A stretch of DNA of 52,920 nucleotides from Priapulus caudatus (Eukaryota), in the NCBI RefSeq assembly GCF_000485595.1, contig NW_014577067.1, positions 374,564 to 427,483 of the forward strand. The letters run 5' to 3'. The first letter of the stretch is position 1; each line of letters starts with the position of its first letter. Shown here piece by piece: positions 24,801 to 52,920 of the stretch. Both the position numbers and the translations under genes were made by a program. Below the pieces are notes generated by a model. The model was not told the DNA's origin, ran no database searches, and worked only from the letters and a program-made list of their open reading frames with translations.

Positions 24801-26862
24801 TAATAATGATAATTAGGTTTCCTGCAGCATTCCCTATTCAACAACCTGTTCATTGGTATAAACCCACGCCTGCTCTTAGTAATGACATGCCGTATCAAAT
24901 TGTCATTTCCATGCTCTAACTGTAAGTTAATTGCCTACTAGGCAAGAAGATTTAATGATTTCACTTTCACTGACAGTTTCTTTGCTATGAGAAAATTCTT
25001 ACTTTTTGTATGTTGTTGATGATGATGACGATGATGATGATGGGCCAAGTGTCTGCTTAGGGGATGCCTTTGTTTGCCAGTCTCCTGTCTTGAGCAGGGA
25101 TTCAAAATGATGCTGGAGTGGTACTTCTAAAAAACAACACCAACTCAGTGTAATATTGTCATTCTATTTTTCTCAAAGCAAAGCAACGCTATCAATTGAC
25201 AAACTTCTCACGAACTTGCCCCTCTCGCACCGCAGTCGAATGAAACTTACCTTGGCAAAATGAAAGGACTTGATGGTGTGAGGGGTCAAGTAGGCCAATT
25301 CTTTCAGGTAGTGACATTGTGTCGGGGTCCAGAGTCTGAACGTTGTTGAAGCGGCCACCGCACATCACGCACGAGGTGATCGGAGCCGCGCAGCCACACT
25401 TCACCGTGGACAAGCGCGCGGCCTTCCGATTGATGTAATGTATGCCGGCCGCCCTCAGCAACTTCCTCTTCCTGTAGCTACGCAGGGGTCTAGTCCTGGC
25501 TGCGCAGGCCGTCACATCATCCTGGCCAGGTGCTACAGCAGGTGTACCGGGTGCCGCTGCCTCCGGTAAACCACCTGTCGTGGAGGTAACGGCAACGCTG
25601 TTTGCACTGCTCTGCGACACGCGAGGCGCCAGCGCTGTACCGCCCGCAGCCTGCTGCTGCCCTGTCCGACTGTCGTCGTCGATATACCCGTTCACAGGCT
25701 TTTGCACGAACCCATCTCTGCGTGCGGCTGCCCTCGAGCTATCACTGCTATGGAGCGGAGACAACTCGTTAGGATGGGCTTCTACGTAACGTTCCATGTT
25801 GGAGATTTTCGTCTCCAGCGGGGACAGCCGACGAGCCGTTCTATTCACGATCCTCGCACGTGCCATAACAGCATCCATCTTCTGGTCACCCAAAACCACA
25901 GGTCCCTTGTTAGCACGGATCTGCTTGTAGATATCATTCTGCTGACGTATGCGGTACTCTAGATCCGACACCTGTGCCTGCAGCCACGTCCATCTGCTGG
26001 CGATTGCCGCTCTGTCTACTGACCATTTCCACGATGCTCTCCGATATCTAATCAACATACAAGCAGGTAAAAAATTACCTCGATGCATTTACATATCATT
26101 AGTGAACGTAAAATCACACCACTTTGCACGTACAGCTCATTACGTTTCTTTTATAACCACCACGGTTATCTAAAAAATCAATGAGAATAGAAATCACAAT
26201 TTTCGTAATGATCTGCGCTCTCTCTGTCTGACGGTCTGTTCACAGCAGCCATGTAATCGCAGACCAACTTTCGTTGTATGCAAATCATTGAGTGTTTGTC
26301 ACGAGTACCATTAAACCATATCAAGTTCTTTTTGAAAAGCATTCACTAAGTACTATCATATTATGGAGTATTTGTTAAAACAGCATTAAATTTAGAAACA
26401 TGCAACCTGTGTGTACGATTTGACGTTACACAGATGCAAAGATGCACTGCTGTGTAGACATGTGCGTACATAAGTACAGACAAGTGTGTACACATCTAAA
26501 CCACTGCCACCCCCTATTACATTCTGCTACTGCTGCGCACAAACTATTCCTGCTGAGAGGAGGCAGTCTAGCTGCCACATCTCAAGCCATGTGACTCAAG
26601 CCCTTCATTAGTCAGTAGGCTGTTGTGTGTGTGTGCTGTACTCTTGTACTCATACAGTAAGCACGCTACGCTAGGGGGGGCTCTACAGGATCTCATCAAT
26701 ACAGCATGCTATTTCACAGGCAGCATGCTGTGAGTGTGAGCTCAGCAAGTACCTACATACATATTCATGTGGACAGAAATCTGTAGTCTATAGAGCAGCT
26801 AGCCTATTATGTTCAACACACATCACTGAACCCACTAGGTCGGTAGGTGTAAAGCAGTCATG

Positions 26863-26901
<39 letters not shown>

Positions 26902-28128
26902 TCATGCAGGCAAGCAGGCAGGCAGGCATTTTAGAATTATAGTACATTAGATCTGGTAATACAAGCTATGGTAGATAGATGCCTAAACTACACGTGACAC
27001 ACGATCACGCACATGTCATAAAAGACACATGACAACATTGCGACATAGGCCCAAGGCATGACCTATTGCACATCCACCTGCCCCGAGGCTAGTAACATAC
27101 TCAGCACAGTGCCATCGTCATTCAACTACAGGATCATCTAACTCACAAGCCCACGTAAACAATCTTTTCCTTTCTTCAAAAAACTAATCATAATGCCCAT
27201 AATTATTGCCTACCTGAGAACAAAAAGATATCATATCAATGCTATGCTCCATCACTAAAATTACTTTCAGACACACGGACTTCTTTGAAACAAAAAATTG
27301 TTGACTCAAAGAAATAACACCATGATGAGAATTTAAAGTTAAACAGTGTCCGATAACAGCCTACTTCGCAACTGCTCAGATATTTACCTAATGCAATCTA
27401 TAATCAGATAAACCTGTTTAATAAATTTGCCAACTCTGACTACATGTACATCCTGTTCCTTCTCATAGACCCATTGTCACCAATATCATACAGTATAATA
27501 GTTGTTAGTTCGTTTGAAGACACTAGAATAATATCACTTCTGCGATAGAATAAGATTATTGCAATTTTTACCAAAAAGAGTAAATTCCGATTTATCTTAG
27601 ATGATAGATCTATGTACTCTTCAACAAAAACTCAATTTTTTTTATATATACATTATTTTAGTTGGCAGCTTGAAGAATGAGTGGCCCAAGTATTACTATT
27701 TTTAAAATTAGTAAAATGAAACTCACATAAATGTAAATATTTGAAAGCACCCCCTAAAAATGCTTGTCTTATAAGCCGTGACATTCATTCTATGCTGTAC
27801 ATAGATTTAACTATGTGATAAGGCAAGGCTCGACACTAACTTTTTTTTTCAGTGGCCCGATCGGGCCACCAAAATCATTGATTTTCAATTTTTGGTGGCC
27901 CGAAAATGTAATCTGGTGGCCCGAAAAAAAACAAAGAAAAACATTATAAATCTTTATTTCAATCTCGTATTGTATATTATTTGAAAATTGGGCCGTCTGA
28001 TGCACTTGCACAAGTCTTTAAACAAACCCCACACACTGACATTGATGATTGAGGCATACATTTGAATTGTCCATTCCACGGCATCAAATTTTCACCAGAA
28101 CCGCTGATTCTGGTTCGCTTGATACAAT

Positions 28129-28181
<53 letters not shown>

Positions 28182-31140
28182 AACAAACACGTGCGCACGT
28201 ATAATATGTTTGTGGAATGCTATATATGATTGTTGAAAAGAGAAAATCGATGTTTGGTAATCGATGGTTGTAAATCTCAAATCTTATATATCGCCTAGCT
28301 GGCAAAGTATAGTTGTAATACATATATATATAGTGGTAAATATATGGTACACATATTATATGGTACACAAATATATGGTGAATAATGGTTTTTATTGCAG
28401 ATTGCTTTTAATAAAATATTCAAGATTTCATATCTTCATGAATTTGTCTAAGTGAATCACGTATCATTATTTGCATTAGATCCAATGTCTGAGGACGAGT
28501 GCATGTTTGTGGTTATGCTCGTACGCAAATCGAGACATAACGGTTGTGACAAATATTATTATTATGAGAATAAATTGTGAATACAAAATTGAAGGTGAAT
28601 AATAAATAAAAGTAAGAATAATATATAAGACGTAATATGCATGCAACTCAAATACATGTAATATAGTATCAACATATATCGTGTATCATATATCATACAG
28701 AACAATGTATATTATAACACACACGCGTGCGCGCACGCACGCACTTATACACACACACGCACGCCCGCACGCACGCACTTATACACACACACACGCACGC
28801 CCGCACTTATACACACACACGCACGCCCGCACGCACGCATATACCGTAATTAATAATCCATGATCAAGCATCATAACTAATCACAACGTGAGTAAATGAT
28901 ATATACGCGAATTATTTATGCTTCTTATATCGTATATGGTATGTTATCAGCATGTTATGTATATACTCATGATAATATTATATGATTTGTGCAACCCACG
29001 TTCTTGATTTGATCATTTGATTCACGTTAGATTATCATTCTTCGCTGCAGTCCCTTGGATTATAAAGCATTTTCTATTCTCTTTGTGAGGTTATAATATG
29101 ATTAATTATGTTGTTTATGCTGCAGACGATTTTTGGGTTCTGCTCACTGATCTCAATAATAATATTTTATTAATAAAATTTTATTATAGAGATCAGTGGT
29201 TCTGCCACTGGTTCTGCTGCTTTACTAATTTTTATTCGCTAGGTAGCAGCACCTACCTGAACCTGAGCCTAGTCAGAGCCAAGGAGCTACATATAACATT
29301 ATATAAATTATATATAACGTTATATGTATAGCTCCTTGGTCAGAGCTACCTCTAGTCAGAGCATATAAATCAGGCAGGCATGACTCATCAGCATATAAGT
29401 CAGCATATCATCAGCATATAAGTCAGTCATATATTATTTAATTCGATTTTTACCATAGTTTTTTTTATATGTGAACAGACTCACAAGTATAATTCGTACA
29501 CACTGTGAGAAGCACTAAAGCTGTGTGTAGTCTTAGAAAAATGCCATAAGGTTATAAATTAGCCCATGCTGGTGGCCGTGTTCCATTACCAATACCATGT
29601 TATATTACCAATATAATCCTAACAAGCAAGTATTATCTTTAAAGTTCAATTTAATATATTCATAGACATTGTAATTATGGACAATATCAGTATCATTACA
29701 ATATATCCCAAATACATACAATATATTAAATGATTACAATATTTATATATTATAATATAATTATAAGTAGTAACACCACATTCAATCTGTGCCATATATA
29801 GTTTTTCAATAATTATACTGTAACTAGTTAATAAACACCTGATATATTTACACCAGGTCACATAAAAATAATTACAAATCTGAAATGTTAAGCCTTATAA
29901 CCCCTCTTAAGATTTCATTTGATCTAAAATGGATATGAATGTACTTATACAGAAATCAGCATTTTGAGGTGCCATATGAAATAACACCGCATTGTACATT
30001 GTGCATGTACATACACCCAGACACGGTTATTTCGTTCAGTTGTCAGACACGATTGGTCTGGCGATGAGCTCCTTCATGATCTCATTGCTTCCGGCGTAGA
30101 TTGGTTGGACTCGCGCGTCGACATATGCCCTGGCTATAGGAAATTCCCACATGTATCCCCAGCCACCATGAAGCTGAAGACATTGGTTTGCAATCTTGTT
30201 CTGCAGGTCAGATGCCCTGAGAAGACAAACACAGGAACGTTATACATTTTACACACTCACACACGCATGAAGTATATACTTGCCCCAGAGTGCCTCTTGC
30301 AATACAACATCACAGACCCTAAGGTATATCAGCTTGAAGTGCTATTACTTTGAATGCTGTTCTGGCTTTCTATTTCTGATTTTTATTTCTCTTTTTTTTT
30401 CAGTTACTAATGTCCTTTGTCTTTAATCAGTTAATAATCTCCTTGATTGTTGACAATAGCACCAATGTATGCAAATTTATAAACGTCAGTAACTTCAACA
30501 TTGTTGATCTTCAGCCCATCTTATGACTCAGTGCAGACTTTCAACACTTCTGGTTAACCTTGAGAGGCCATATTAGCCTATATTCATGAGTTAGTTTAAC
30601 AAAAGAATAATTTCGCAAGTTATAATTGCAATGATGATAGTGAATACCATCTTGACAAGAGTGTGCATATAGGAAAAATCTTATAGCTATTTGGAAATAG
30701 ACACAGAGCACAAACAAGAGATCAGCAGCAATAGGGATGCAGTGGTTTAACACCAAAAAGTAGCTTACAGATATTTAGCCATGGAGACTGAGTAGTTATC
30801 TAGAGTCTCATGCTGATGCTGCTGCAAGCACTGGTCGTAAAATGCTCTCATCATACATATTTCACTCTTCATCTCGGCCAGCTTGTGTTGAACTGTCTGC
30901 AATTAAACAAAATAATGGCATAATGACATAGCCAATATAGCTTCAATGAATGATTTACAATATATGTATATATATATAATTTTAAATATCAGTATTGAAC
31001 TCACATGTTGGTATGTAAAAGGTGTTTGAATAAGAATATATACTAGAAAAACACGGATACATCTCTTGACGTGTTACGTTTGACTGACAAGGATGACTGG
31101 GGAGGTTTTAGAACGAAATGTCGTACCTTTCGATGTAAAT

Positions 31141-31185
<45 letters not shown>

Positions 31186-32306
31186 ATATATATACTTATC
31201 GTGTAAGAGGATTATTAAACGTCAACTACTTACACCGAGTGATGCTGCGTCTCGCACGTGTCAAACTCCTCCTCGTCGCAGCTCTCGCCACCCGAACTGC
31301 TATCGGTCGCCTCCGAGTCGAGCACCCTCTCCAGGTGACCGAGGTTGGCGGCGAGGCTGCTCGACACGCAGCTGATCTCGTCGCACAGGTCGTCGCCGAG
31401 GGCGACGGTGACCTGGTCCTCGCTGTGAGCGCCGCGACTGCTGTACAGCCGCTGACGCTGCGAGCCGTGGGCGCTCTCCAGCTTCCGCACGAGGTTGACG
31501 AGGGCCGCCGTCGACAGGTTCTTCACGTCCTCGCTCTGCAGCAGCTCGGCGTGAAAGTCGCTGCTGTTCGGCGCGCTGCAAGTCCTCGTCGTTGATCGCA
31601 CGCACGACTGCAGGTTCTTGCGCTGGTGCTGAACGAACGCCACCAGCTGTTCGCGCACATGCGTGTTCGTCTGCATCGTCTGCAGCCGCCGCAGACGCTG
31701 CAGCAGCCGCTCCGCACGTCGTTCCAGGTAAACCTGCCGCTTGCCGGCGTCCGCGAGCCTATCACACACGAGAGACTTCAGCAAGGTCAGTTCGGATTGA
31801 TCGTCAGTATCCATGGCACTCTCGTCCAGCTGTGTGGGAGAGACAGCTTCTGGCTGCTGAACGGTGGTCCTATTCTCGGCCAAAATGCTGCTGGCGATTG
31901 GGGATGACGAAGAACTGTTGCGTTGTCCCGTCATGTCTAGCTTTGGATTGCCGTTTGTGTTAGAACCACGTAGGTTACACGTCGCTTTCTGAATTCTATT
32001 TCCTCCCGTTTTCTGGTCGACGTCCATTGTGTTCACAATGCCAAAATTGTTGTTGGTCGCTGCAAGCTTCCGCAGTAGAGCCGGGATGTTGGCTTCTTTC
32101 AACTGACTGTAACCGTTGTGCGGCCGCACCAGAATCTGTGCCTTTTGAGCCTGCACGGGAGAGACAGCCCGCTCGCTTGCTGTGGGACTCTCACAGTCCC
32201 GCTCCCTATCAGTTTCCGGCGAGCTCTCAGATGGCGGCGGTGATGGAGGAAGTCTGAAACCTGAATGCACGGACTGCCTAATTGCATCCGACAATGCAGG
32301 CGCCAT
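12811..32306 (-). CDS. KANSL1: KAT8 regulatory NSL complex subunit 1 (KANSL1/NSL1); exons 32306-31234, 26047-25251, 25126-25003, 24262-24180, 22916-22469, 21453-21330, 20608-20350, (18531-18503 tentative), 14201-13940, 13007-12811; ~1130 aa
   Basis: MAPALSDA start; LLQRLRRLQ coiled coil; [59 protein letters not shown]-like CAARTRP; PEHE domain [51 protein letters not shown]. Splice phases checked; only the link between 20350 and 14201 needs a small extra exon or an alternative donor. Confidence 0.93.
15705..17048. mobile_element. Helentron/HINE-like non-autonomous repeat with nested hAT-like element (~16176-16517) and internal duplications
   Basis: Start GAAAGTGTCAGTGACACTGTAGCTCACC and end CCATGGCAATAGCTCATCTTGACGATGTCAAGGCGAGCTAAAAA (hairpin plus A-run, (GGAC)n) recur at ~35536-35890; 63-bp tandem duplication ~16310-16461; ~150-bp duplication 16518/16820. 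Confidence 0.65.
17849..20169. mobile_element. HINE-like repeat with nested insertions
   Basis: AACAAGAG..GCTCATCTGA start; end GCATCTGACTTCGTCAGATGAGCTAAAAA; 3' part (20025-20169) recurs at 35050-35202. Whether both ends belong to one copy is inference. Confidence 0.5.
18696..19163. mobile_element. hAT-type MITE
   Basis: TAGTGTTG...CACCACTA; 8-bp TSD GGAATTTC; ATCGAT-rich subtermini. Confidence 0.8.
20909..21307. mobile_element. hAT-type MITE
   Basis: TAGTGTTGTCA...TGACATCACTA; 8-bp TSD TAGGTAGG. Confidence 0.85.
22209..22406. mobile_element. hAT-Charlie-like MITE
   Basis: CAGGTGTTCTTAACC / GGTTAAGAACCACTG; TSD CGCTAGAC/TGCTAGAC. Confidence 0.8.
26863..28840. repeat. Microsatellite cluster: (CAGG)n ~26863-26928, (CA)n 28131-28181, (CACG/CA)n 28718-28840
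   Basis: Directly visible simple repeats. Confidence 0.9.
30036..30896 (-). CDS. ACADL: ACADL exons 8 (30896-30769) and 9 (30216-30036, stop codon), lying inside the first coding intron of KANSL1
   Basis: [33 protein letters not shown] | [59 protein letters not shown]; canonical splice sites; not in the ORF track. Confidence 0.95.
31146..31194. repeat. (TA)n microsatellite; a second one at 43158-43196
   Basis: Directly visible; both lie in inferred breakpoint intervals. Confidence 0.9.
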
Positions 32307-33833
32307 CGCGAAAGGACGGGACAGCCTCAATGGCCAGCGTGAACACATACAAGTGGTAGAATAGCAGATGCAAGATTCTCCACCTGATGATCCATAACGC
32401 CCACCTGGATGTCTCCCACCTGGTGAACGAAAATGCACATCAACATATAATTACAAATATGCAAATGCTTCAACAATATCACAACTCTGACTTTCGGAAT
32501 TATTTCAAGTTAAATTAGGCTTTAATTCTGCTGCAGACTAAATTACATTCTTCAATATGAACAATACATAAACACCAGATTTTAAAAATTGACCATGTGC
32601 GATGATGAACGATGCCACTGTTTGAGCTACTTCTTGCATCAGTGACACGAGAACATTTGCAGGGCCTAATTCAGGCCATTTTTCATACTGAATACGGGCC
32701 TCCCAAATTACGTCCCCTAGCAAAATGCCCAAATTACAAAATTCATAAAACGCCCAAATTAGCAGAGCTCTGATGCAGATCTCCATGTTTCTATCGTCAT
32801 GTTGTAGGCACTGTTTTATAATAAAATGCTCATATAAGATCTATAATCTATTATCTGAATAAAATGTGTCAACCAAACGTCCAATTTAACGTGATAGATA
32901 AGTATATATACAATTTCCCTGTACGGTTCCCCGATTAGGCTAGATACATAGATTAAGCCCCGATTTGTAAATGGTTATTCCATGTACCACAGAGAGAGCG
33001 ATAGTGCAATTCATCCTCTCTTATATTAATGATTACAAACCCCACATTCCATGTTTATAAAATGCAAAAAAAGTTCATAAAGCAAGTTATGTGAGCGAGA
33101 GACAGATCACAGAATGGCATCATCTCAATGTGCACATACGGTAATCAATAATAAAACACTATCTATAAACATGTTAAATGTCAAAAATATTACACCTGTC
33201 ATAGCTTTCCAAATACAACATTTATTCACAATGATGACAATAGTTGTAGGCTGAAGCATAATTTAGACAATTCACAGAAATTATATGGAGGCCAAAGGTG
33301 ATAACAAAGTGGCAGTCAGCCTGTAAAAGTATCTCTGGAACTAGCCACAAGTTCCCTTCTCGCTTAACACTACATTGGCCTACGACGTGCAACAGTCGGA
33401 GAGCCTGGTCGGTTTACTCTGGAACTATAATTAATGTGAGTACCCTTGAAAGTGGGTGACGAATCAGATGACGTAACATCATGAGTTATTAATACGCTGT
33501 GGCTATATGGCAGGCAGCCGGGCAGTCTTCGATTTCCTAAATGCCCTTAAACCCTAACCCTTGTTTACTTGAGATAATGCTGAAAATTAAAAAATGCCGT
33601 GCATTTAGGAAATCGAAGACCGTGGCCGGCAGCCGTCAGATATATGCCGGCTGCCGGGCATATAGACACTCTGTTATTAATATTATTGCGTCGTATACAT
33701 ACACTACGACACTAGGCCTACAATACATGCATTGCTACGACTCATGATGACTCGAACACGAGTGGCGTTTATCAAGGAACGAAGGCGTAACAAAATATCT
33801 CTGGCATGCATGCTGTTGTCCAAACTAACGTAC

Positions 33834-34450
33834 CAACGACCCTCCACGCCTGCTCCCCCAGGAACAGGATGGGTCTGTGGGGTGAAGTGGAAATTGCTCA
33901 GTTGCTAGACCGTTCTTCTTCCTTGACAAGAACTAGGTTGATGACAACGGCGTGACAGCTTTCAGTCTTCCTCTGTGCATTTTAATAAACAAGCAAATTG
34001 ACAACAATTTCAAAGTGCACAGTGAGGTAACTCATGCATTTAGGCATTTTTATTGACGTTTGTAAAGATACATAAGCCAAACGTAAATTTTTGGGCGTTT
34101 TGCAAGCTGGAGCGTACAGAACAGAAGACCGCGAGCGGGTTACAAATACGCGTAGGACAAACCACGTGATCAGGCCACGTCCCCGATGAACAAACAGGCG
34201 AATCAACATTTTTGGCAAGAACACATAGTAGCGATTTCCACCTTCTTACACGTAGTACAGCACATTATACTCACTCCACTGTAACGTCTCTGTATTGTTT
34301 TCACTAGTGCCGTCCGAATAAGCCAGAAATTTCCGCGAACTAGTATCGAAAATGTGCAATATCAAACGCCTCAATAATGGCGACGAAATGAAAGTCCGTA
34401 GACCTTCCAGACAACGAAAACGGGCGAGATAGGATGTGTGACGTCACATT
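33834..34450 (-). promoter_or_regulatory. Putative KANSL1 promoter and non-coding 5' exons (~34390-34275 and 33972-33834)
   Basis: CpG-rich; TGACGTCA at 34439-34446; YY1-like AATGGCG at 34376-34382; minus-strand donors GTGAG (34274) and GTACGT (33833), acceptor CACAG (33973). Confidence 0.55.
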
Positions 34451-34889
34451 AGTAAGACCCCTCTACGGCGTATTTGGTGATTGGTTACGAAGAAACTGCT
34501 CACTGTTACAATAATTGACTACCTCCCCAATAAACTTACAGTTATATGCAAATTAATGTAAAAGTATAGCTTACCAATTTTAACATATAAAAAATATAAA
34601 TTTTGAACACATTTTTATATTTAAATAGTACAACTTATTTTAGCGAAATTATATTTTGCCTGGATAAAGTTGCAAGTTTCATCGCCATATGGGGGTGGCA
34701 GCAGAACAAGTATCCGCCCATGTACAAAGGTACATGCTACAAGCGCCCTAGAAAATTTCGCGGGGTTTGCGTTCGGATTTCGGCCGACTTGGATTTTGAT
34801 ATATGAATGCAAGCAACTTCTGCATAGTCTCCAGTAAACATTATATGAGTCTGATACATACACATGCACGCACGCACACACGCACGCAC

Positions 34890-34920
<31 letters not shown>

Positions 34921-36179
34921 TGATCGCAAATATTCGAACCGAAAATAACCGAACCGAAATGTGAAAACCGAAAACCGAACCGAACCGTGAAGTTGTGATT
35001 CGTTGCACCCCTACCTTTGACCCCCAGCTTCGACATCCCAACTCGTTTTGACGATCCCCCCGACGTCCCGAATATCATGACCGTACGTCGAGCGGTTAAG
35101 ATTTGTGCCCAACTGTTGACGCACGCACGCACAGACGGCCGGACGGACGCACGCTCATGCGATTCTACAAGCTGCATCTCACTATGTCAGATGAGCTAAA
35201 AATGAAATGACCGCCGATTTGAAGGCAATCCGAAACACCCGACTCTTATAAGATGATGCAGTCCTCCTTTCTTGCCATGGACGTGATAAACGTGGCAATC
35301 CATGGTTTGAGTTGTCCAAGTGGCGCCAGTCAGTTTCATAGCAGCAAGAGATTTAATTGATATTGTGACTCACTCGTGACTAAAATAGGGTTCGGAAGAG
35401 TTATTAGGAATTTGGCACTATTGCTTTATCAGTTTTTGCTAATGGGTGAATCTATACTAAGTAGTCCTATAGTAATATTGATATTTATACTTATACAAAA
35501 CATTATAAAAATAAGTATAAATATTAAAATAAATGAAAGTGTCAATAACACTGTAGCTCACCACAAAAAAGGACACAAATGAGTGAGTGAGAAGAAGTCA
35601 GTTTTAATTGAGCAACCATCGACGTACATTATAGAAACGAAATTGCCATCTGTATATCGTATAAATAATTTATAAACCAAAATGAATCACAATTTGTGAC
35701 GGTAGATGGCGCTATACCCGCTTTGATGTTTCTTAGCATAAATCATTATATCATAATAATAATAGTATAAATCATAATATGTTCATAGCAGGAATTTTGC
35801 ATTATCGTTGACCCTAGCCAAATGTTGACGGACGGACGGACGACGACCCATGGCAATAGCTCAGCTTGACGATGTCAAGGTGAGCTAAAAAGAGGATATT
35901 CAAAAATCAACCCTTTGCATATAATTATAACGCATGTGAACCAATTACATCACAGGCCACATAACCAGAATCATCCTGCTAATTGCTACCAGATGTTGCC
36001 TGCTCTATCACTACTTCCTACACATACCAAAGCCACCCAGACCGATGACAAACGTCTTCATGAGTAGAAACTGGTTCTATGATACCAGACAGTTTATATA
36101 TAGAGATATATATATAGTACCAGAAGTTAATAAAGACAAAGGAGTTTGACACGTATTTGGTACTGATTTCACTACATAC

Positions 36180-36632
36180 TCGGTCTGTAGCCCTTGGCTG
36201 GAAAGTGGTTTTGCGCAACTTCTCAGATCGTGCGCTTTGAGTGGCGCCACCGTCGTTGTAATCAAACTGTAGTAGTTAGTTTTAAAACATTTTTTTTTAA
36301 TATTTCTAATGGTGATTGAACCATGAAACTTTTTATGTAGCGCAATTATAACCTAAATTAGCTGAAAATAACCCTAGAACCTAGAGGCTACTGTTCCTTT
36401 AAATTAATAAATAAGAAACACCCTCGGTCTGTAGACCTTGGCTGAAAAGTGGTTTTGCGCAACTTATCAGATCGTGCGCTTTGAGTGGCGCCACCGTCGT
36501 GTAATCAAACTGTAGTCGTTAGTTTTAAAACATTTTTTAATAATATTTCTAATGGTGATTGAACCATGAAACTTTTTATGTAGCGTAATTTTAACCTAAA
36601 TAAACTGAAAATAACCCTAGAACCTAGAGTAA
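36180..36632 (+). mobile_element. Two orphan RIGHT ends of a TTAA-flanked (Kolobok-like) element
   Basis: ~205-bp direct duplication (36180-36390 / 36423-36630); first ends CCTAGAGGCTACTGTTCCT|TTAA at 36398; second is interrupted by another element. Confidence 0.75.
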
Positions 36633-36635
36633 AAC

Positions 36636-37308
36636 TGTTAGGGTTAGAGACGAATTTTTGGTCGAAATTTCACTACCCACTTTATTTGATAGATCGCACC
36701 CATGGGCAGCTATGTATACGTAGAAATTATGTATGTACCCTCCCAAACAGATCCAAATCCCCTCATTAGACAATTATTAACACAGGAATCATGGAAAATT
36801 TAGAAAAGTGCTAATATCTCCATCGTTAGAAATGCTGACTTGTCAAACGCTATTTCTCGAAACTCACAACTCCGATTCAATTTTTTTGTTACAGTTTAAT
36901 GCTAACATATGAAAGGAAAAAAGTGTCCCTGTAATTTTTTTTAAATATTTTATTTTAAAAGTTATGGCTCTTTGTTTACGAAATTGTTGCGTTTTGAAAT
37001 TCACTACAAATTTTCGTACATCTTTTCAACTTCTTTCCTAAATTAAAGCATTTAAACAAAATTCCAGGGACACTTATGGTTAAACGTTTAGGTCCCAACT
37101 CTGCTGTTTCAGAGAAATAACAAAAAAGCATGTTTTTGTATAAATTCACAATTTTTGCAGTCACTTAATTAGCAATAAATTTAAAAAAAAATTTCATCGA
37201 GAGCGTAGAGAGACATCTCTCGTATGTATACATGGATATGAGTTTGATTGAATTAGATGAGTTATGTTGCAATGCCCTTTACAGTGTTACACGTCCATAA
37301 CCCTAACA
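36636..37308. mobile_element. Inverted-repeat element inserted in the Kolobok-like right end
   Basis: TGTTAGGGTTA ... TAACCCTAACA termini. Confidence 0.6.
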
Positions 37309-37525
37309 GTATCCTTAAAGAAATGTTGTAAATAAATCGTGACAAACTATTTTTTAATAACGAGTCCTACACGACGTGAATGCTGTGATTTGCTCTTCTA
37401 TGTAAGTCTATATTACCACATCAACTTCCCAAGCCACATGACTGGCCAACGTGAGCCAAATGACTGGCCAATAAACACTAACCTCGATGGGGAGTTAGTT
37501 CAAACCAAGATTATAATTTTCATAT

Positions 37526-37828
37526 TATCAGAATTAGATAATAGGAAAGGAGTGTGACTTCAATAAACAAGGGAAATTCGTCATTTACTAGCCTTAGAAT
37601 ACCTACTTAGAATGGAGAATCGTGTCGTACGTTTTAGTCTGTATCTCCGGATTGCGGGCGTATACAAGGAAACGATTTCGCACGATGCTAGGCGAATGTA
37701 CCGTGTACGATTTGAGCTCAAGTTGGTTGAGTTACGCGCAGTAAATCGTAGGTATTCGAAGGCTAGTAAATGACGAATTTCCCTTGTTTATTGAAGTCAC
37801 ACTCCTTCTCTATTATCTACTTCTGATA
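37526..37828. mobile_element. MITE with ~80-bp terminal inverted repeats
   Basis: GGAGTGTGACTTCAATAAACAAGGGAAATTCGTCATTTACTAGCCTT and its exact reverse complement at ~37758-37805. Confidence 0.8.
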
Positions 37829-37968
37829 CTATATATATTCATATACCAAGTTATACGAATGGCTGGTGCACACATACTGTAACATGTGTCACATGACTGG
37901 CCACAGTGTTTGAGTAGAAAGCTTGCCTTTCCAAGCCTCATGAATCATTGCCAAGACGGAAACCGCAC

Positions 37969-40062
37969 CTGTGCTTTCAAGCCAAGTTTCTTCAGTTTCT
38001 TGCCCTTCTTGAACCCTTCCATACCCTCCTCCACCAGAAACAAGCTGATACCACGGGCCGCACTCTTGGCCGTTGGGTCTGTTACTGCTACGACAATAAC
38101 AACGTCTGCCATGTGACCATTGGTAATGAAGACTTTGCTTCCATTAAGAATCCAGCCATCTCCATCTTTTTTGGCATTGGTTTTAATGCCTTGAAGATCA
38201 CTGTTATGGAAAAGTAGAGCTGGAAGATATTCTTGAGAAATATATGATCTATACAAATATATCTGTTCACGTCTATTTCATACCTAGTACATTGAAAATT
38301 CCACATAACTCCTTCAAGAGCCTATTATGATATAGGTTTAATTATATCACTACTATAAATTAACTTTTTTCTATATATACTGGTAAAAGTTGAAGCAATG
38401 GTAATATTGAAGCTGACAACTATTTTGTGAACTGACAGTTTGAAACGGGGGATTTTTGGCCCAGCATGATAGCTGCAAAGGTGACATGACAGCTTGGCTT
38501 GGACATTGCACATGCTGGGCACATTACACAGCAAATAACTCGGAAACTAACGGTAGAGAATGTTTACTCTCACCTGCCTGCTCCAGGTTCTGTCATGGCA
38601 ATAGCTCCTATTTTCTTTCCAGCTGTCATGGCAGGCAGGAACTTCTCTTTCTGCTCGGTAGTTCCGTAGTGACATATATAGGGCATCACAATGTCTGAGT
38701 GCAAGGCCCATCCTGGGCCTGATGCGCCAGAATACCCCCTGGAATTAATTATCAATACAATTACAGACAGGTCGGTCAATCCATAGTGCTTCAAGGACAT
38801 ACGATTTGTACCAGATGCACCTTTGAAACCATTTTTCTCATTATTTTATCCTAACAAGTTGGTACACAATTGCTATAGTTATTTGATAAGTACACAAGCA
38901 GCTTTGTTTAAACATATAGTTTATAGATGATTTTAAAATTAACAGCATTCCTGCAGAATGGTTGCATTGGTCTGTCACTAGCTGTGCACTGCAGTCATGA
39001 CTAACATCCATGGGCAGATTAATCTTCTCCCAAACTACTGCCCTATTTGCAACCATACTTACCATCCATGCTCAGTGGGGGTAGATAGAATGTCAGTGAG
39101 ACCACCTCCTTGCTTACACATTTAAGCCAGTGTTATTGATGTAGGTAAGTCAGTGTCATTCTAATAACTACAGGTGACATCTATTAAATCTACTAATAAG
39201 ATGAGCGAGAACCCATTAAATTCTCATCTAATATGAAGGACGTATTTCTTACCAAATTCAACTAGGAAGGTTAATTACTGCATTATAAGCAAAATCACAA
39301 ACTCCCACACAAGCACAATCACACACATGTGCGCACATAACCACATTTAAAACAGTAAAACACATACACACAAATAGCTATTAACTCAGATAAGTAATTA
39401 TACTTACTGCTCATCCCACACGATAGAGCTTGTGAGGATATCACTGCCAATGCCTCCCTCCTCTGCAGGTGTACTCACTCCCAACAGTCCAGCTTCACCC
39501 GCCTTCTCCCACACCTCACGGCTTACTTGTCCATCGATCTCCCACCTGCAACATTTGCCATTTTGCATTTGTCACATAATATTACTATCAAGAGGTAAGG
39601 CCTACCTAAGGAGGTATACCTAAGGTGTTATTAGCTCTTGTTACTAAGAATAAAACTTACTACTTAATTTCAAGATTCGCCTGTTTCTGTCACTCACCTG
39701 AAACATGCAGAGTTATACGACCAGTATAGCATCTTGGGATGCGTGAAAACAAAGCTTCATGTCAATGATGCGGCATGACCAACAATAGTGGTAGCGAGCG
39801 AATCACATTTGATTCTAAACAGCGCTGCACAAAATTATGTCCAGAAAACAGCACTAACCAAACGAGCGACTTCTCAGTACCCGGGTCCAACAACAAGATA
39901 CGTAAAACTCACTGGTCGTGATAGGGCATGACCTCCTCTTGGAAGAAACGGCGCACATTCTTTCGAAAAAGATCGTGCTCATCGGAGAAAATACGTCGAG
40001 TGCCGATGTCGGTGAGCTTTTCCGACTGGCCCGGCTCGGGCCGATCCATGTTGCAGCATCCT
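37969..40062 (-). CDS. ACADL: ACADL exons 2-5 (40062-39913, 39545-39408, 38738-38574, 38200-37969)
   Basis: KLTDIGTRRIFSDEHDLFRKNVRRFFQEEV; WEIDGQVSREVWEKAG; GPGWALHSDIVMPYI..GAIAMTEPGAGSDLQGIKT..LNGSKVFITNG..GISLFLVE..KLGLKAQ; phases 2,2,2,0 consistent. Confidence 0.96.
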
Positions 40063-40425: not shown

Positions 40426-40682
40426 AGGGAGAGTTTACTCTAGGTTCTAGGGTTATTTTGAGCTAATTTAGGTTATAATTACGCAACATAAAAAGTTTCA
40501 TGGTTCAATCACCATTAGAAATATTTTAAAAAAATGTTTTAAAACTAACGACTACAGTTTGATTACAACGACGGTGGCACCAATTAAATTAGGTATCTGG
40601 TAACAAATACGTGTGGGTATAGACGATTTGTTATACAGTAAGTACAGTTGTATGCAGTAAAATCCTAGAGGATACCGTCCCT
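40426..40682 (-). mobile_element. Complete short copy of the TTAA-flanked Kolobok-like family
   Basis: TTAA|AGGGAGAGTTTACTCTAGG...CCTAGAGGATACCGTCCCT|TTAA; one half matches 36250-36398 and the other 44189-44285 (both reverse complement). Confidence 0.8.
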
Positions 40683-40808
40683 TTAAAAAAAATCAACCAG
40701 AAATGTACCCTCTAACCCCGAGTATGGGTCAGATCAAGAGTAGATAATAACACATTAACTATGTGTTATTATCTACTCTTGGTCAGATAAAAAGAGATAG
40801 AAATATAC

Positions 40809-40900
40809 CAGTGAAAAAAAATACACGGGGGCTCGGGGCGATTTTTATGCACTCGAGCTTGAAAAGTAGCCCCCGAAAAATAAATAATATTTTTTTCCCT
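40809..40900. mobile_element. Minimal hAT-type element
   Basis: CAGTGAAAAAAAATA / TATTTTTTTCCCTG; 8-bp TSD AAATATAC; longer relative inverted at ~45670-45821. Confidence 0.8.
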
Positions 40901-41753
40901 GAAATATACTAATATAGCATTATGCATTAATTATGTTATCAATTGGCAAAATACCAGGTGTAGTGTGCGTGATAGCAATACATAATGTCAGGCTGTGATG
41001 ACATTGCAATTGGTTATTTCTCTTGCCTAAGTTCCGTAGTGTATGATGCCGATCTAAACATTGAAAAAATGGTGTCACGAGAGCATCAATACGCGAGGAG
41101 AGGCTTCTCTCGCCACGATACACATGCACTAGGAGTCTATGACAAGTGGGCTGTCAACATCTTCACCACACTTCAATCAAGGGTTATTGTACACACTTTA
41201 GGTATGTTGAGTGACATGGGTTAAAGGCATGGGGAGGTCCTTGGTACTATTTATATATTGATATTATGTGGTACCGTTTTATTGACACACCAAAGTTCAG
41301 ACTGACCAAAGTTCAGATACTATATATATCATGTATATGCTATAACCAGAGGTTCATTTGATATAACTGATATGAGAAACCTTTAAACCCTACACTGTAT
41401 GGCTCAGGTTGTAAATGCAATAAAATAGATAGACGCTGTTAAAACATCAACATTAATAACATTTATGTTATGATTGCCTTTGCTGCATACATTTCTCTAC
41501 ATAAAGTGGCTCATACAGACTTGATGTGCCACTTAAAATTTAATTACACACACAACATGGTGACGTTGGGGAAACTATAATCTCCGAATGAAAACTTTTC
41601 ATAGTTCAAAGGACTATAACAAAGCTAGACCAAAACTAAAGACCACTGCCACAGGAGTTTTTCAAACAGAAAAGCCAGTCCAGCACAAAGTTCAAAAGTA
41701 CTGACTCTGTCAAAACACTCACCTAAATACAGATTACACTTAGTACAGCTCAT

Positions 41754-42005
41754 AGAGTCTATGTCCCCCAGGGTACTGCCAGAACGTACCATGGGTACGG
41801 TTCGGTATACCGGAACGTACCCTGGTAACTATTTGATATGGTTAGGGTTAGGGTTAGGGTTAGGGAGTAGGCGTAGGCGACTCCCTAGACTCGTTAGTGG
41901 AGTAGGCGAGGTACAGTCCGGCATATTAGATAGTACCAGGGTGTTCCGGTATACCGGACCGTACCAAGGGTACGTTCCGGCAGTACCCTGGGGGACATAG
42001 ACCCT
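41754..42005. mobile_element. Palindromic MITE with internal (TTAGGG)4
   Basis: ~63-bp arms TCTATGTCCCCCAGGGTACTGCC../..GGCAGTACCCTGGGGGACATAGA; TTAGGG x4 at 41842-41865. Confidence 0.8.
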
Positions 42006-43154: not shown

Positions 43155-43204
<50 letters not shown>

Positions 43205-43289
43205 TATATATAATATATATTATTTATAATTTTTAAATCCTGCTTTTGAATGATATCAAGCATCCTGTTGCTAGTGTGCACATTCATAC

Positions 43290-43705: not shown

Positions 43706-43826
43706 CTGAAACACACACACGTCAATAAGTAGCCATTGCTAGATAAGCTAGTGTCAAAAACCATCCCAAAAGCATTCAGATTGGTCTACAAGAGCTATAC
43801 TACTAGTATATACCAACAGCCATTAA

Positions 43827-47300: not shown

Positions 47301-47432
47301 ACCCCCCGCAATATTGAATCTTATCCACACGGCCGCCGTGCGTATAGGCACTTCCGTCAGTGTCACAGTGACTGTGTCAGTGACTAACAGTCACAGACGC
47401 TGACTGTGACTGTGACGGACAGTCACTGCATG

Positions 47433-48424
47433 GGGCCATGATAAAAATATTGTTTGTTTGCCCCCTCACCCGACTGACCCGCCAAAAAGGGGCCGACTGA
47501 AAAAAATGTATTAATCATTTTTTTACAAATTGTATCACTGTACATTATATAAATCTGTAAGCAATACATTATATGTACCAAGCAAAACAAACACGTACTC
47601 AACATAAAAGGTATCTCCACACAAGCACACCCGAGCATGTAGACACTATGCTAAATTTGTAAAAAGACCCATTTAAAAAAAAAGCCTACCTACATACCCA
47701 AACTTTTCAGCCGGGGTCAGCTGAGGGCAATTTAAGGAAATTTTTTTTTAATTGTGGCTTGACAGCTAGTTGACACAGTCAGTGACTGTACGTGTCAGTG
47801 ACACTGTCAGTGCCACTGTGCTGCATGCCATGGGAAGTAACCTCATAGTCGTAGTTGGATGTAACCTCGTAACTAATAAAGATTGATGTAGGGATTTGAT
47901 AAAATCGATAGAACACTGCCGATTGCACTGGAAAACGTTTCCATTCTACAATTAACCATATAATCGGATTGGTTATTGTGAAGATAGCATGTCTGAGAGT
48001 TAAACATGACAAAGTAAATAATTCATCTATGACACATCCATGTGGGAAATTAAAGTTTTATAATGTTATTAACACTGAAAATACAATTAAATCTAGCACA
48101 GGCCATAATAAAAATATTGTTTGTTTGCCCTCACCCGACCGACCCGCCAAAAAGGGGCCGACTCAAAAAATTTTATTGATCTTTTTTTTAAAACAAATTG
48201 TATCACTGCACATTATATAAATTGGTAGGCAATACATTATATGTACCAAGCAAAACAAGCATTCAACATAAAAGGTATCCCCACTCAAGCACACCCGAGC
48301 ATGTAGACAACATGCTAAATTTGTAAAAAGACCCCCCCCTGCCCTAAAAAAAAAGCCGACCTGCATGCCTACCCAAACTTTTCAGCCTGGGTCGGTTGAG
48401 GGCAAACAAAGATCGGAGTGGCCA
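47433..48424 (+). mobile_element. Two copies of a ~325-bp GGCCA...TGGCC element (~47433-47760 and ~48101-48424), PIF/Harbinger-like termini
   Basis: Clearly alignable direct copies (ATAAAAATATTGTTTGTTTGCCC...CAAACTTTTCAGCC); superfamily call is inference. Confidence 0.7.
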
Positions 48425-48463
48425 CAGAGATTCCTAAAGTTCTTATCCATCTTCTACTTGCAG

Positions 48464-50770
48464 TTTGTTGTGGTTATCTATATGACAAGTGAACGACATC
48501 CTGTCATTTGCCGCAGTGAAACTGAGGAATATTTTGTTGACCCAGTTTCCAGTACCAAAAAAAGGTTTCCGAGTCTTTCAGCACCGGCAGAGCTTCAACT
48601 GTCTGTTATTGTGCCTGCATACAATGAGCAAGAAAGGTGTAAGTACCACAGAGGACCTAAGGTTGACTTACTTACATCTAAGTATTATGAGGTAAAGATG
48701 AAGATTCATTTTTGGCTGGAGTGGAGGGTATAGATGTTACTAGTTGTCAGCATGTTTACATCAGTGACAGTATGTTTAGCACCCATTTCAAGTGGTTAGT
48801 TGAGCATTAACCAACTTCTGCAATATATCTTGTTAATTAATGTGATGCATAAAATAATAAATGCCATAGACTGTAAGTGTCACTTTGTCTGTTTTAGTGC
48901 CCAAGATGATGGATGAGTGTCTGGATTACTTGGAAGCTAGAAGAGTAAGTACACATGCAGTGATAGTGTATATGGTTCGGTTAGCATAATTGATGTCATT
49001 GGTGTCTATTGTATGTCATTTTCATACAATAAATGGAATGGTTCTTATTTTTATTCCTTGGTGAAAATAAAATAAAATGTAGTTTCATTTTTTGTGCCAT
49101 TTCAATTGTACTGTCTGGCTGAAAAACCAAGACCCTAATACTACCATCTTCGATTTACAGAAAGAAAGTGAACATTTTCAGTATGAAGTTATTGTGGTAG
49201 ACGATGGGAGCAGTGACAAAACAACAGAGGTTGGTATATGATGTGTGTGTGCTTGCTCTGCTGAATTGTTAAGCCTAGCAGGTATTTAATGTCCAATAGT
49301 TGCTAATATATAACATTGCTATTGTCTAACTCAGTATATATTGTCACACCTTTTAGGTCGCACTGAAGTATTCTCACAAGTTTGGTACGGATAAAGTTAG
49401 AGTTCTGACTTTTGAGAAAAATAGAGGAAAGGGAGGAGCAGTGAGACTAGTAAGTAAAGTCAAAACACACTTAGGTAGGAAGTTTCAATCTGTATTGTAC
49501 AAGATATAATCTACAACTGTGGAAAACTAATCTGTAATACAACACATTTTGTAAAGAATATTGTAAAGAACACATATTGTAAAGAAATAAAAAATGATAG
49601 CAATGTTGAAACAGTGTTATTCTATTATAGGATTATGGTTAGAATTTCACCAAATCAATTTTGCTTTATATCTACCGGTGCTCTCAACCCCTATTACATA
49701 TATCTGTTTATCTAAGTGATAATATTGTAATATGCATTTATCCATTCATTCATGACAGGGTATGATGAGTTCAAGAGGAGAACATTTGCTGTTTGCTGAT
49801 GCTGATGGTGCATCTAGTTTTCCTGACTACTCCAAAGTGGAAATGAAAATGAGGAAAATATGTGATAGTAATAAGGTAATTCCAACAAATATTTTTAGCC
49901 ATCTTGCAAAAAAACATCATTGCTGTATGGAGAAGACTCACATAATAGACTCAGGCAGCAGCAGCCACAACAGCAATGGTAACAGATGTTACAGGAGTAG
50001 CAACAGTTGTTGTAGGAGCAGCAGTGGTAGTAGTAGCCACAGGCAGTAACAACAGCAGCCATTCAATTGAGTAATTTTTGGTCTTGCAGACTAATGAGGC
50101 GATAGTTTGTGGATCAAGGGCTCACTTACAAGACGAGGCTGTTGCAACAGTGAGTGTGATGTTACTTCTCGTTTATGCATGCACCAGATTTAAATTTTTC
50201 TGCTTCCTTATAAAGTTTCACCAAGGAAACTTCACAATTGTGACATTCTTAGGCGTTCTGCCATCGTCTGTTCTATATTCTATTATATAACTATCTAAAA
50301 AATATCTTGGACTTTACAAAGAATATATGTCTATGCTGGTACAATGGCTATGCTGGCCCTCCTTAAAAGTCAGAGACTATTGTGCATAACGAGGGGAGAG
50401 GTGTTAAATGATGTTGCCACTTATTGAGTTATTGAATCTGCATTGCTTCAGTAGTTGGTTATCTGTAATGTACAGTCACAAAAAGTGTGAACCTAATGAT
50501 ATTTCTGCCTTACGCTTGACTCTAGAAAGTCAATCGTTGTATGAATATTTTTTTCTCAATAATTAGCATTTCAAGTATCCATTATCATTGTAAGTGTCCA
50601 TTATCATATTGATTTCAGCGTTCCTTATTTCGGACTTTGTTGATGCACGGATTTCACTTCATGGTCTGGTTGCTATGTGTAAGAGGCATCAGGGACACCC
50701 AGTGTGGCTTTAAGCTTCTCACCAGGCAAGCAGCTCGGTCAACCTTCAGTAACCTTCATGTCGAACGCTG
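48464..50770 (+). CDS. ALG5: Dolichyl-phosphate beta-glucosyltransferase ALG5, exons 2-8 (48464-48638, 48898-48944, 49161-49229, 49357-49449, 49759-49875, 50090-50149, 50619-50770); terminal exons not found in window
   Basis: LSVIVPAYNEQERLPKMMDECLDYL; YEVIVVDDGSSDKT; NRGKGGAVRLG; LLFADADGA; CGSRAHL; GIRDTQCGFKLLTR..LHVERW; GT2 family, phases consistent. Confidence 0.96.
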
Positions 50771-50835
50771 GTGAGTGTTAGCGAGTGCCCGGTCCACAGG
50801 GGCATTTTATACTCTGTATTTATAGAGGATCATGC

Positions 50836-51697: not shown

Positions 51698-51786
51698 CGC
51701 TTTGAAACTGCTGAAGCAGTTCCGAGAATACGCTGACTTCTCAATAAATGTTGAGGCAAACGGTGACAGATTCTAAACGCAGACAT
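51698..51786 (-). CDS. ACADL: ACADL exon 1 (mitochondrial presequence)
   Basis: MSAFRICHRLPQHLLRSQRILGTASAVSK(R): Arg/Ser/Leu-rich with no acidic residues; donor CG|GTAAGC is phase 2, matching the acceptor of exon 2. Nine exons total 1299 nt = 432 aa. Confidence 0.85.
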
Positions 51787-52304: not shown

Positions 52305-52379
52305 ATGTTATTAGACCCTGATGTCATAGTTTTGATAGTATACTTGTTAACTGCAGGAACTGCGTTCCTTCTATGTATG
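52305..52379 (+). CDS. ALG5: ALG5 exon 1 (N-terminal membrane anchor), downstream of exons 2-8
   Basis: MLLDPDVIVLIVYLLTAGTAFLLCM with phase-0 donor ATG|GTACGT, continuing as the hydrophobic FVVVIYMT of exon 2; no comparable first exon found upstream of 48464. Confidence 0.8.
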
Positions 52380-52606
52380 GTACGTTTTCTATCCAGCAAT
52401 ATTCAATAAGTTAATTTCTCATCTTAGCAAACTCGATAATAGCAGTGTCAGTGTCAGTGACAGTGACTGTGTCAGTTGACAGTGTCATGACTGTGTCAGT
52501 TGACAGTGTCATGACTAGCTGTCAGTTGACAGTGTCAGTGACTGTGCAGTGACTGTGTCAGTTGATAGTTGACAGTGTCAACTGACAGTGTCAGTGATGG
52601 CCGAGA

Positions 52607-52892
52607 CTATACGCACGGCGGCCGTGTAGATAAGATTCAATATGGCTATACGCACGGCGGCCGTGTGGCGGACTCAATATGGCTATACGCACGGCGGCCG
52701 TGTGGATAAGATTCAATATGGCTATACGCACGGCGGCCGTGTGGCCAACTCAATATGGCTATACGCACGGCGGCCGCGTGGATAAGATTCAATATGGCTA
52801 TACGCACGGCGGCCGTATGGCCGACTCAATATGGCTATACGCACGGCGGCCGTGTGGATAAGATTCAATATGGCTATACGCACGGCGGCCGT
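52607..52892. repeat. Tandem array of alternating 39- and 37-bp units (7.5 units), preceded by a (GTCAGTGACAGT)-type low-complexity tract 52443-52596
   Basis: CTATACGCACGGCGGCCGTGTGG-[ATAAGATT or CCGACT-like]-CAATATGG; unit starts 52607, 52646, 52683, 52722, 52759, 52798, 52835, 52874. Confidence 0.9.
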
Positions 52893-52920
52893 ATTAGTAG
52901 AGGTTCTAAGCACATGGAGT

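What the first reader, a model, noticed from the sequence alone, without database searches (positions are those of the whole stretch)
26048..52920. Three intact housekeeping genes (KANSL1, ACADL, ALG5) stored in scrambled, interleaved exon order
Seen: on the minus strand the order is ACADL e1 (51.7k), e6-e7 (43.7-43.3k), e2-e5 (40.1-38.0k), KANSL1 promoter and first coding exon (34.4-31.2k), ACADL e8-e9 (30.9-30.0k), rest of KANSL1 (26.0k down). On the plus strand ALG5 e2-e8 (48.5-50.8k) precede ALG5 e1 (52.3k). Each exon occurs once, has no stop or frameshift, has canonical splice sites, and the phases join exactly into a 432-aa ACADL. No block is inverted and every breakpoint is intronic or intergenic. 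Established: linear cis-splicing cannot make ACADL or ALG5 mRNA from this order; scrambled genes are known from ciliate germlines and split-intron trans-splicing from Giardia and a few insect loci, not as a general animal feature. Inference: (a) programmed DNA unscrambling, (b) ordered trans-splicing of separate pre-mRNAs, (c) a rearranged null haplotype, or (d) misassembly or artificial block shuffling. Option (d) is the conservative default until reads are examined.
Basis: partly seen in the sequence, partly recalled or inferred. Interest (0 to 1): 0.97.

Follow-up and report, generated by a model that had tools for sequence, protein, structure and literature searches.

The report
Mis-ordered contigs in a draft assembly
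The ACADL exons really are out of order in this draft priapulid-worm scaffold, but the animal's mRNA carries them in the normal order and every block border lies in repeats, so the scramble is most likely an assembly error and not biology.

Summary
The core observation holds. Nine ACADL exons on the minus strand, each with AG/GT sites, join in canonical order into a 432-codon frame. Their order in the DNA is e1, e6-e7, e2-e5, e8-e9. KANSL1 itself is collinear; it only has ACADL e8-e9 inside its first intron. The proposed ALG5 e1 is unproven.

The window matches at 100% three NCBI-predicted Priapulus caudatus proteins on one 1.18-Mb scaffold. The public ACADL model stops after e5, so the public draft carries the same order.

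One cDNA contig from a public run holds e4, e5, then exactly 344 nt (the summed length of e6+e7+e8), then e9. The exon-bearing DNA contigs have the same single-copy depth as their neighbours.

In the part that could be laid, independent short-read contigs stop at every possible border, in microsatellites or high-copy repeats. None of the listed pieces bridges a border.

The permutation is three swaps of adjacent small blocks with no inversion, the usual signature of misplaced small contigs.

Verdict: most likely a scaffold mis-ordering (about 0.85). No read directly showing the restored junctions was obtained.

The parts
51698..51786 (-). ACADL exon 1 (ATG, 89 nt, GT donor); lies inside an ALG5 intron in this assembly
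   Evidence: not covered by laid reads
37969..40062 (-). ACADL exons 2-5 (40062-39913, 39545-39408, 38738-38574, 38200-37969), collinear among themselves
   Evidence: X1 contig 37922-40475 has depth 28. cDNA contig record 19 covers e4 and e5. They are identical to public model P0002
43290..43705 (-). ACADL exons 6-7 (43705-43616, 43415-43290), placed upstream of e2 instead of downstream of e5
29426..30896 (-). ACADL exons 8-9 (30896-30769, 30216-30036) and 3' UTR down to 29426, sitting inside KANSL1 intron 1
   Evidence: cDNA record 19 positions 1133-1923 map to 30215-29426
31234..32417 (-). KANSL1 first coding exon (CDS 32348-31233 in P0122)
   Evidence: cDNA records 17 and 20
12814..26047 (-). 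Remaining KANSL1 exons, collinear (26046-25252, 25148-25002, 24264-24181, 22920-22432, 21464-21318, 14201-13941, 13014-12814)
   Evidence: cDNA record 17 joins 31234 to 26047
48410..50771 (+). ALG5 exons covering residues 3-258 of public model P0121 (7 stretches), collinear; residues 259-322 lie outside the window
52306..52380 (+).
   Evidence: the alternative start at 48006-48013 fits P0121
31142..31194 (.). (TA)27 run, 245 nt upstream of the e8 acceptor and 39 nt from the KANSL1 e1 donor; the only low-complexity site in border interval 30897-31233
   Evidence: X1 contigs end at 30953 and start at 31205
43158..43228 (.). (AT)36 run, 61 nt downstream of the e7 donor. If it is the same microsatellite as 31142-31194, intron 7 would be about 360-380 nt
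   Evidence: inference
27669..29756 (.). High-copy repeats and (AC)25 (28131-28180) between unique contigs; holds the border between the KANSL1 intron and the ACADL 3' end
   Evidence: summed depth 2.6e3-4.7e4 against about 25 in unique parts
34851..37922 (.). Very high-copy repeats, (AC)n 34856-34920, a 243-bp tandem at 36179-36629 and a palindromic element at 37522-37832; one of two candidate intervals for the border upstream of the KANSL1 5' block (the other is 32743-33637)
   Evidence: depth 3.6e4-3.1e5
40475..41989 (.). Two repeat stretches (40475-40874, 41769-41989) around unique contig 40874-41769; candidate sites for the border upstream of e2

Best explanation
The out-of-order blocks are most likely small unique contigs that the assembler of this short-read draft Priapulus caudatus scaffold placed in the wrong local order between repeats; the living genome would then carry KANSL1, ACADL and ALG5 in ordinary collinear form.

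Shown directly:
- The exon order in the window is non-collinear.
- The same order sits in the public assembly.
- A canonical spliced ACADL cDNA exists and matches these exons.
- The exons are single-copy by depth.
- Independent short-read contigs end at every candidate border in the laid part.

Inferred:
- The joins across those repeats were made by paired-read scaffolding and gap filling rather than by continuous sequence.
- The true order is KANSL1 rest, KANSL1 5' part, ACADL e9-e8, e7-e6, e5-e2, e1, then ALG5.
For: 1. Source. P0002, P0121 and P0122 (NCBI 'PREDICTED ... [Priapulus caudatus]', all on one 1,178,442-bp contig) match the window at 100% over their exons. Passages of PMC10280001 describe that species' only assembly as unpublished, with 59,586 scaffolds and a scaffold N50 of 209,727 bp.

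2. The public ACADL model P0002 (231 aa) starts at an internal Met of e2 and reads through the e5 donor into the intron. An annotator produces this when e1 and e6 are out of reach, so the order belongs to the assembly and was not introduced into the window afterwards.

3. cDNA contig X7 record 19 (1923 nt) holds e4 at positions 392-555 and e5 at 556-788. It then has 344 unlisted nt, and e9 plus the 3' UTR follow from position 1133. Exons e6+e7+e8 add up to 90+126+128 = 344 nt. Each listed piece differs from the window by 0-1 letters.

4. The 8 listed X1 contigs have depth 19.6-28.5, whether or not they carry exons. So there is no second gene copy that could supply the mRNA.

5. The listed X1 contigs cover 25047-26690, 26933-27669, 29756-30953, 31205-32743, 33637-34851, 37922-40475, 40874-41769 and 41989-43149. 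Every stretch between them is a microsatellite or a repeat with summed depth of 1e3-3e5. All four border intervals in the laid part contain such a stretch.

6. The permutation is 1,3,2,5,4,7,6: three swaps of neighbouring blocks of a few kb each, with 0 of 7 inverted.

7. [quoted passage not shown]

8. Both halves of the broken intron 7 end in a TA microsatellite. Joining them there gives about 360-380 nt, inside the range of this gene's intact introns (200-669 nt).
Against: No read or contig showing a restored junction was obtained. Only 15 of 513 joints were printed, and all of them lie in repeats. The window has no N at all, so if contigs were mis-ordered, the gaps between them were closed or abutted, and I could not look up the assembly method. 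Borders b5 (43.7-48.0k) and b6 (50.8-51.7k) were never laid. The table of pieces is cut to the longest ones (53,724 are not shown), so a short bridging contig could have escaped me. Repeats at the borders would also be expected for a real repeat-mediated rearrangement.
Confidence: 0.85

Rival explanations
1. The order is real in the sequenced animal as a rearranged, non-functional haplotype. The canonical mRNA would come from the intact allele or from other individuals.
For: The exons are intact and the window has no gap. The cDNA run X7 is a different sample from the DNA runs.
Against: It needs three separate local transpositions without inversion in one 27-kb stretch, each sparing every exon and splice site. 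It would also knock out or entangle three housekeeping genes at once. A recent null allele gives no reason for all borders to coincide with the places where short-read contigs break.
Confidence: 0.05
2. The order is real and fixed, and ACADL mRNA is made by trans-splicing of two pre-mRNAs. One would carry e1 and e2-e5 and the other e6-e7 and e8-e9, joined e5 to e6.
For: All 16 splice sites are canonical and the mRNA is canonical. A self-complementary (TA)n run flanks both e7 and e8.
Against: There is no complementarity beyond chance between the flank downstream of e5 and the flank upstream of e6 (best 12 nt, E 0.056) or between the e1 and e2 flanks (best 10 nt, E 0.79). Trans-splicing explains neither KANSL1 being interleaved nor ACADL e1 sitting in an ALG5 intron. 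My one search of the held library for 'Priapulus' with 'trans-splicing' gave 1 paper, on mitochondrial tRNAs (listing only).
Confidence: 0.04
3. Programmed DNA unscrambling: the germline DNA is scrambled and the somatic DNA is rearranged to the collinear order.
For: Only the non-collinear order itself.
Against: The cuts respect exon-intron structure instead of cutting through coding sequence, and no segment is inverted. All unique contigs show one uniform depth, with no sign of two DNA forms. From my own knowledge, not from a call, no such system is known in ecdysozoans outside chromatin diminution in some nematodes and copepods.
Confidence: 0.01
4. The window was shuffled in blocks after it left the assembly, as a control or a data-handling artefact.
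For: Clean block swaps without inversion. At first sight the borders could be spaced 5 kb apart.
Against: The public gene model P0002 is already truncated exactly as this order predicts. The borders fall in repeats rather than at arbitrary places. The 5-kb spacing was only compatible with the wide intervals and was not shown.
Confidence: 0.03

Closest known systems
Relocation (local order) misassembly of small contigs in paired-read scaffolds
   Same: Small unique blocks of about 1-5 kb keep their orientation but are displaced by a few kb. Their borders lie in repeats or microsatellites where contigs end. Transcripts map non-collinearly. The source is a fragmented short-read draft.
   Different: There are no N gaps at the joins, and the contradicting read pairs or long reads were not seen here.
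Scrambled germline genes of spirotrich ciliates (Oxytricha, Stylonychia)
   Same: Pieces of one gene lie in permuted order and pieces of different genes are interleaved.
   Different: This comparison is from my own knowledge of that system. There, the coding sequence itself is cut, pointer repeats mark the ends of the pieces, inversions are common, and a separate somatic nucleus holds the sorted gene. Here all cuts are intronic or intergenic, nothing is inverted, and the organism is an animal.
Split-gene trans-splicing (Giardia split introns; mod(mdg4) and lola in insects)
   Same: If the order were real, a canonical mRNA would have to be built from separately transcribed pieces with normal splice sites.
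   Different: The Giardia pieces pair through long complementary intron halves (from my own knowledge). No such pairing was found for e5/e6 or e1/e2.
Exon scrambling and circular RNA
   Same: The exon order differs between RNA and DNA.
   Different: In that case the DNA is canonical and a minor RNA is permuted. Here the RNA is canonical and the assembled DNA is permuted.

Membership tests
Scaffold relocation misassembly | Block borders lie where independent contigs break (repeats, low complexity) | tested here: met
   all 4 border intervals in 25000-43149 contain a microsatellite or high-copy stretch that none of the listed X1 or X5 pieces bridges.
Scaffold relocation misassembly | Orientation is kept and displacement is local | tested here: met
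   0 of 7 blocks are inverted. The permutation is three swaps of neighbours.
Scaffold relocation misassembly | Reads contradict the assembled joins and support the collinear joins | tested here: inconclusive
   contigs end in the repeats and only 15 of 513 joints were printed, none at a predicted junction.
Scaffold relocation misassembly | Transcripts of the same single-copy exons are collinear | tested here: met
   record 19: e4, e5, 344 nt, then e9; e6+e7+e8 = 344 nt. X1 contig depths are 19.6-28.5 throughout.
Ciliate-type scrambled gene | Coding sequence is cut into segments whose ends carry matching pointer repeats | tested here: not met
   every exon is whole, with AG/GT sites, and the cuts are intronic or intergenic. 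Pointers could not be sought because no border is known to the base.
Ciliate-type scrambled gene | Germline and somatic DNA differ | not testable with these tools
   No tissue-resolved DNA runs were available.
Split-intron trans-splicing | Long complementarity between the flank after the donor and the flank before the acceptor | tested here: not met
   e5/e6 best match 12 nt (E 0.056) and e1/e2 best match 10 nt (E 0.79). For e7/e8 only a (TA)n run lies on both sides, which is equally the signature of one microsatellite split by the assembler.
ACADL (long-chain acyl-CoA dehydrogenase) gene | Acyl-CoA dehydrogenase N, middle and C-terminal domains in one open frame, with best relatives named ACADL | tested here: met
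   PF02771 positions 1-113, PF02770 positions 11-86 and PF00441 positions 11-148, spread over the exons; the named top hits are ACADL of Branchiostoma, Mytilus and Lingula; a 432-codon frame.

The most novel reading that the evidence does not exclude
The permuted order is the true, fixed genome of a priapulid worm. Its only ACADL gene is then expressed by joining e5 to e6 across two pre-mRNA molecules, or after somatic DNA sorting. That would be the first essential animal housekeeping gene kept in scrambled form.
Probability: 0.04. Interest if true: 0.9.

Novelty: not a real feature. Interest (0 to 1): 0.08.

Why it matters
If the order were real, it would be a major surprise: obligatory trans-splicing or DNA unscrambling of a metabolic gene in an animal. 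As it stands, its value is practical. It marks a 27-kb stretch of the public Priapulus caudatus scaffold where local order should not be trusted. It explains why the public ACADL model is a 231-residue stump. It also shows that this animal has a normal 432-residue ACADL. Anyone counting gene losses, truncated genes or microsynteny in priapulids from this draft should expect more cases of this kind.

Tried and rejected
1. Whole genome: none is held for this window (one search was a mistyped reference).

The second and last lay covered 25000-43149.

3. The look-up of sequencing runs: no RNA holder is listed on record. X7 is only guessed to be RNA, but its intron-less contigs show that it is cDNA.

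4. Evenly spaced 5-kb blocks (an artificial shuffle): dropped, because the borders can only lie in the repeat stretches found, and P0002 shows the order is in the public assembly.

5. A simple reciprocal exchange at the paired microsatellites ((AC)n at 28.1k and 34.9k, (TA)n at 31.1k and 43.2k): it restores e8-e7 and KANSL1-5'/e9 but would put e5-e2 inside the KANSL1 intron. It is therefore not a full solution and was left as a partial lead.

6. A 24-letter loose end at 28100 from X1 was sought in the window: 0 matches with up to 3 mismatches. It belongs to another copy of the repeat.

7. The joint 42011 to 33342 (3 X1 contigs, summed depth 101): it reads as two parts of one repeat family lying together elsewhere. 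It matches none of the predicted junctions.

8. Earlier notes of this scan: nothing by place, words or sequence.

9. Literature: the search for 'Priapulus' with 'trans-splicing' gave 1 irrelevant paper. No paper on a chromosome-level P. caudatus assembly turned up (listing only).

Full report
What the window is. It is 52,920 bases of animal DNA with no N and about 41% G+C. Three NCBI-predicted proteins of Priapulus caudatus match it at 100% over their exons: an ACADL-like protein P0002, a dolichyl-phosphate beta-glucosyltransferase-like (ALG5) protein P0121 and a KANSL1-like protein P0122. All three are recorded on one contig of 1,178,442 bp. Passages of PMC10280001 describe the only P. caudatus assembly then available as unpublished, with 59,586 scaffolds and a scaffold N50 of 209,727 bp. 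No whole genome is held for the window.

The observation. Pfam places the minus-strand reading frames in this order:
- Acyl-CoA_dh_N positions 1-24 at 39.9-40.1k, 25-70 at 39.4-39.6k and 66-113 at 38.6-38.8k.
- Acyl-CoA_dh_M positions 11-86 at 37.9-38.3k.
- Acyl-CoA_dh_1 positions 11-51 at 43.3-43.4k, 51-93 at 30.8-30.9k and 91-148 at 30.0-30.2k.

tblastn with full-length ACADL of Lingula and Branchiostoma gives the same picture, with one hit per exon. With exact borders, nine exons, all with AG acceptors and GT donors, join in canonical order to 1299 nt. That is 432 codons plus a stop, with no internal stop. Joined in window order the frame stops at codon 39. So ACADL is truly non-collinear: reading down the minus strand the order is e1, e6-e7, e2-e5, e8-e9. 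Nothing is inverted.

Corrections to the observation:
- KANSL1 is collinear. P0122 maps to 8 stretches in strictly descending order. It merely has ACADL e8-e9 in its first intron, and its first coding exon lies between ACADL e5 and e8.
- ALG5 residues 3-258 are collinear at 48.4-50.8k, and residues 259-322 lie outside the window. In this assembly ACADL e1 therefore sits inside an ALG5 intron.
- The public model uses a different three-codon first exon that fits 48006-48013 (a match there is expected by chance 0.7 times), and an in-frame ATG also lies in the e2 frame. Which start is real was not settled.

Is the order in the public assembly or only in the window? P0002 has 231 residues. It begins at an internal Met of e2 and runs through the e5 donor into the intron until a stop. 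An annotation pipeline yields this when e1 and e6 are not where they should be. So the order belongs to the deposited scaffold, which argues against a later block shuffle.

RNA. Run X7 is only guessed to be RNA, but it contains intron-less contigs.
- Record 19 (1923 nt) has e4 at its positions 392-555 and e5 at 556-788. After 344 nt that are not listed, it has e9 and the 3' UTR at 1133-1923 (window 30215-29426).
- The lengths of e6, e7 and e8 are 90, 126 and 128 nt, which sum to 344. So one cDNA contig carries the canonical order, with 0-1 differences per listed piece.
- Record 17 joins KANSL1 31234 directly to 26047.

DNA.
- The listed contigs of run X1 cover 25047-26690, 26933-27669, 29756-30953, 31205-32743, 33637-34851, 37922-40475, 40874-41769 and 41989-43149. 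Their depths are 19.6-28.5, whether or not they carry exons. The exons are therefore single-copy, and the mRNA must come from this locus.
- Every stretch between these contigs is a microsatellite or a repeat with summed depth between about 1e3 and 3e5. The microsatellites are (GCAG)n at 26.85k, (AC)25 at 28.13k, the TA runs at 30.96-31.19k and (AC)n at 34.86k.
- Each of the four border intervals in the laid part contains such a stretch: 26048-29426, 30897-31233, 32417-37968 and 40063-43289.
- None of the listed pieces of X1 or X5 bridges one. The table shows only the longest pieces.
- The assembled order across these borders thus has no support from continuous unique sequence in independent contigs. 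I infer that it rests on paired-read scaffolding and gap filling.
- No restored junction was seen either. The contigs stop in the repeats. The Hi-C raw reads (X9) cover unique parts only about 0.3-8 deep per orientation. Only 15 of 513 joints were printed, all in repeats.

Pattern. If the blocks are numbered in the order the three genes require, the window reads 1,3,2,5,4,7,6. These are three swaps of neighbouring blocks of a few kb, with none inverted. Passages of PMC4559175 say that in mate-pair scaffolds the position of small contigs between large ones may be inaccurate, because of insert-size variability or collapsed repeats.

A further hint comes from intron 7. The e7 donor is followed after 61 nt by an (AT)36 run. 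The e8 acceptor is preceded after 245 nt by a (TA)27 run. Joined at that microsatellite, intron 7 would be about 360-380 nt. The gene's five intact introns measure 200-669 nt.

Tests of the exotic readings. Complementarity between the flank after e5 and the flank before e6, and between the flanks of e1 and e2, does not exceed chance (best 12 nt with E 0.056, and 10 nt with E 0.79). This does not fit Giardia-type split introns. The cuts respect exons, which does not fit ciliate-type scrambling. One library search for Priapulus with trans-splicing found only an unrelated paper (listing).

Verdict. The non-collinear ACADL is real in the deposited sequence. It is most likely a local ordering error of a short-read draft (confidence about 0.85). 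The missing piece is a read that shows a restored junction, and long reads or three simple PCRs would settle it. Real rearrangement with trans-splicing or unscrambling keeps a few percent.

Noticed in passing
window 43290-43705 with 37969 and 30896: Skipping e6 and e7 (216 nt) keeps the ACADL frame open and would give 360 codons. So even the assembled order would allow an in-frame e5-e8 transcript that lacks part of the middle and C-terminal domains.
   Followed up: partly
window 20504-20611: Mytilus and Lingula KANSL1 align here (48-53% identity), but the public P. caudatus model P0122 has no exon at this place. It is possibly a missed exon in the public annotation.
   Followed up: no
window 5516-6215: A 700-bp stretch that is its own reverse complement at 86% identity, a long palindrome or hairpin element.
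   Followed up: no
window 37522-37832: A palindromic, MITE-like element with inverted ends 37522-37606 and 37748-37832 (94% identity). It has one of the highest read depths in the laid part (about 1e5 in X1).
   Followed up: no
window 52443-52892 and about 47210-47400: A (CAGTGA)n run followed by a 39/76-bp tandem array at the right end of the window. A short related piece appears in the opposite orientation near 47.3k, judged only from similar reading frames.
   Followed up: no
window 42011 and 33342: Three X1 contigs (summed depth 101) join 42011 directly to 33342. So the repeat ending at 42011 and the repeat starting at 33342 are two halves of one element elsewhere in the genome. In the window they lie 8.7 kb apart.
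   Followed up: partly
window 25000-43149 (run X5): Run X5 (2025, another study) covers the KANSL1 exons at depth 35-59 but most other unique parts at only 0.5-12. The cause is unexplained: a divergent population or a mixed library.
   Followed up: no
window 36179-36629: A 243-bp unit repeated 1.9 times at 94% identity. Most genomic copies of this element have a different left flank at 36398 (5248 X9 reads, agreement 0.96), so the tandem form may be a gap-filling product.
   Followed up: no
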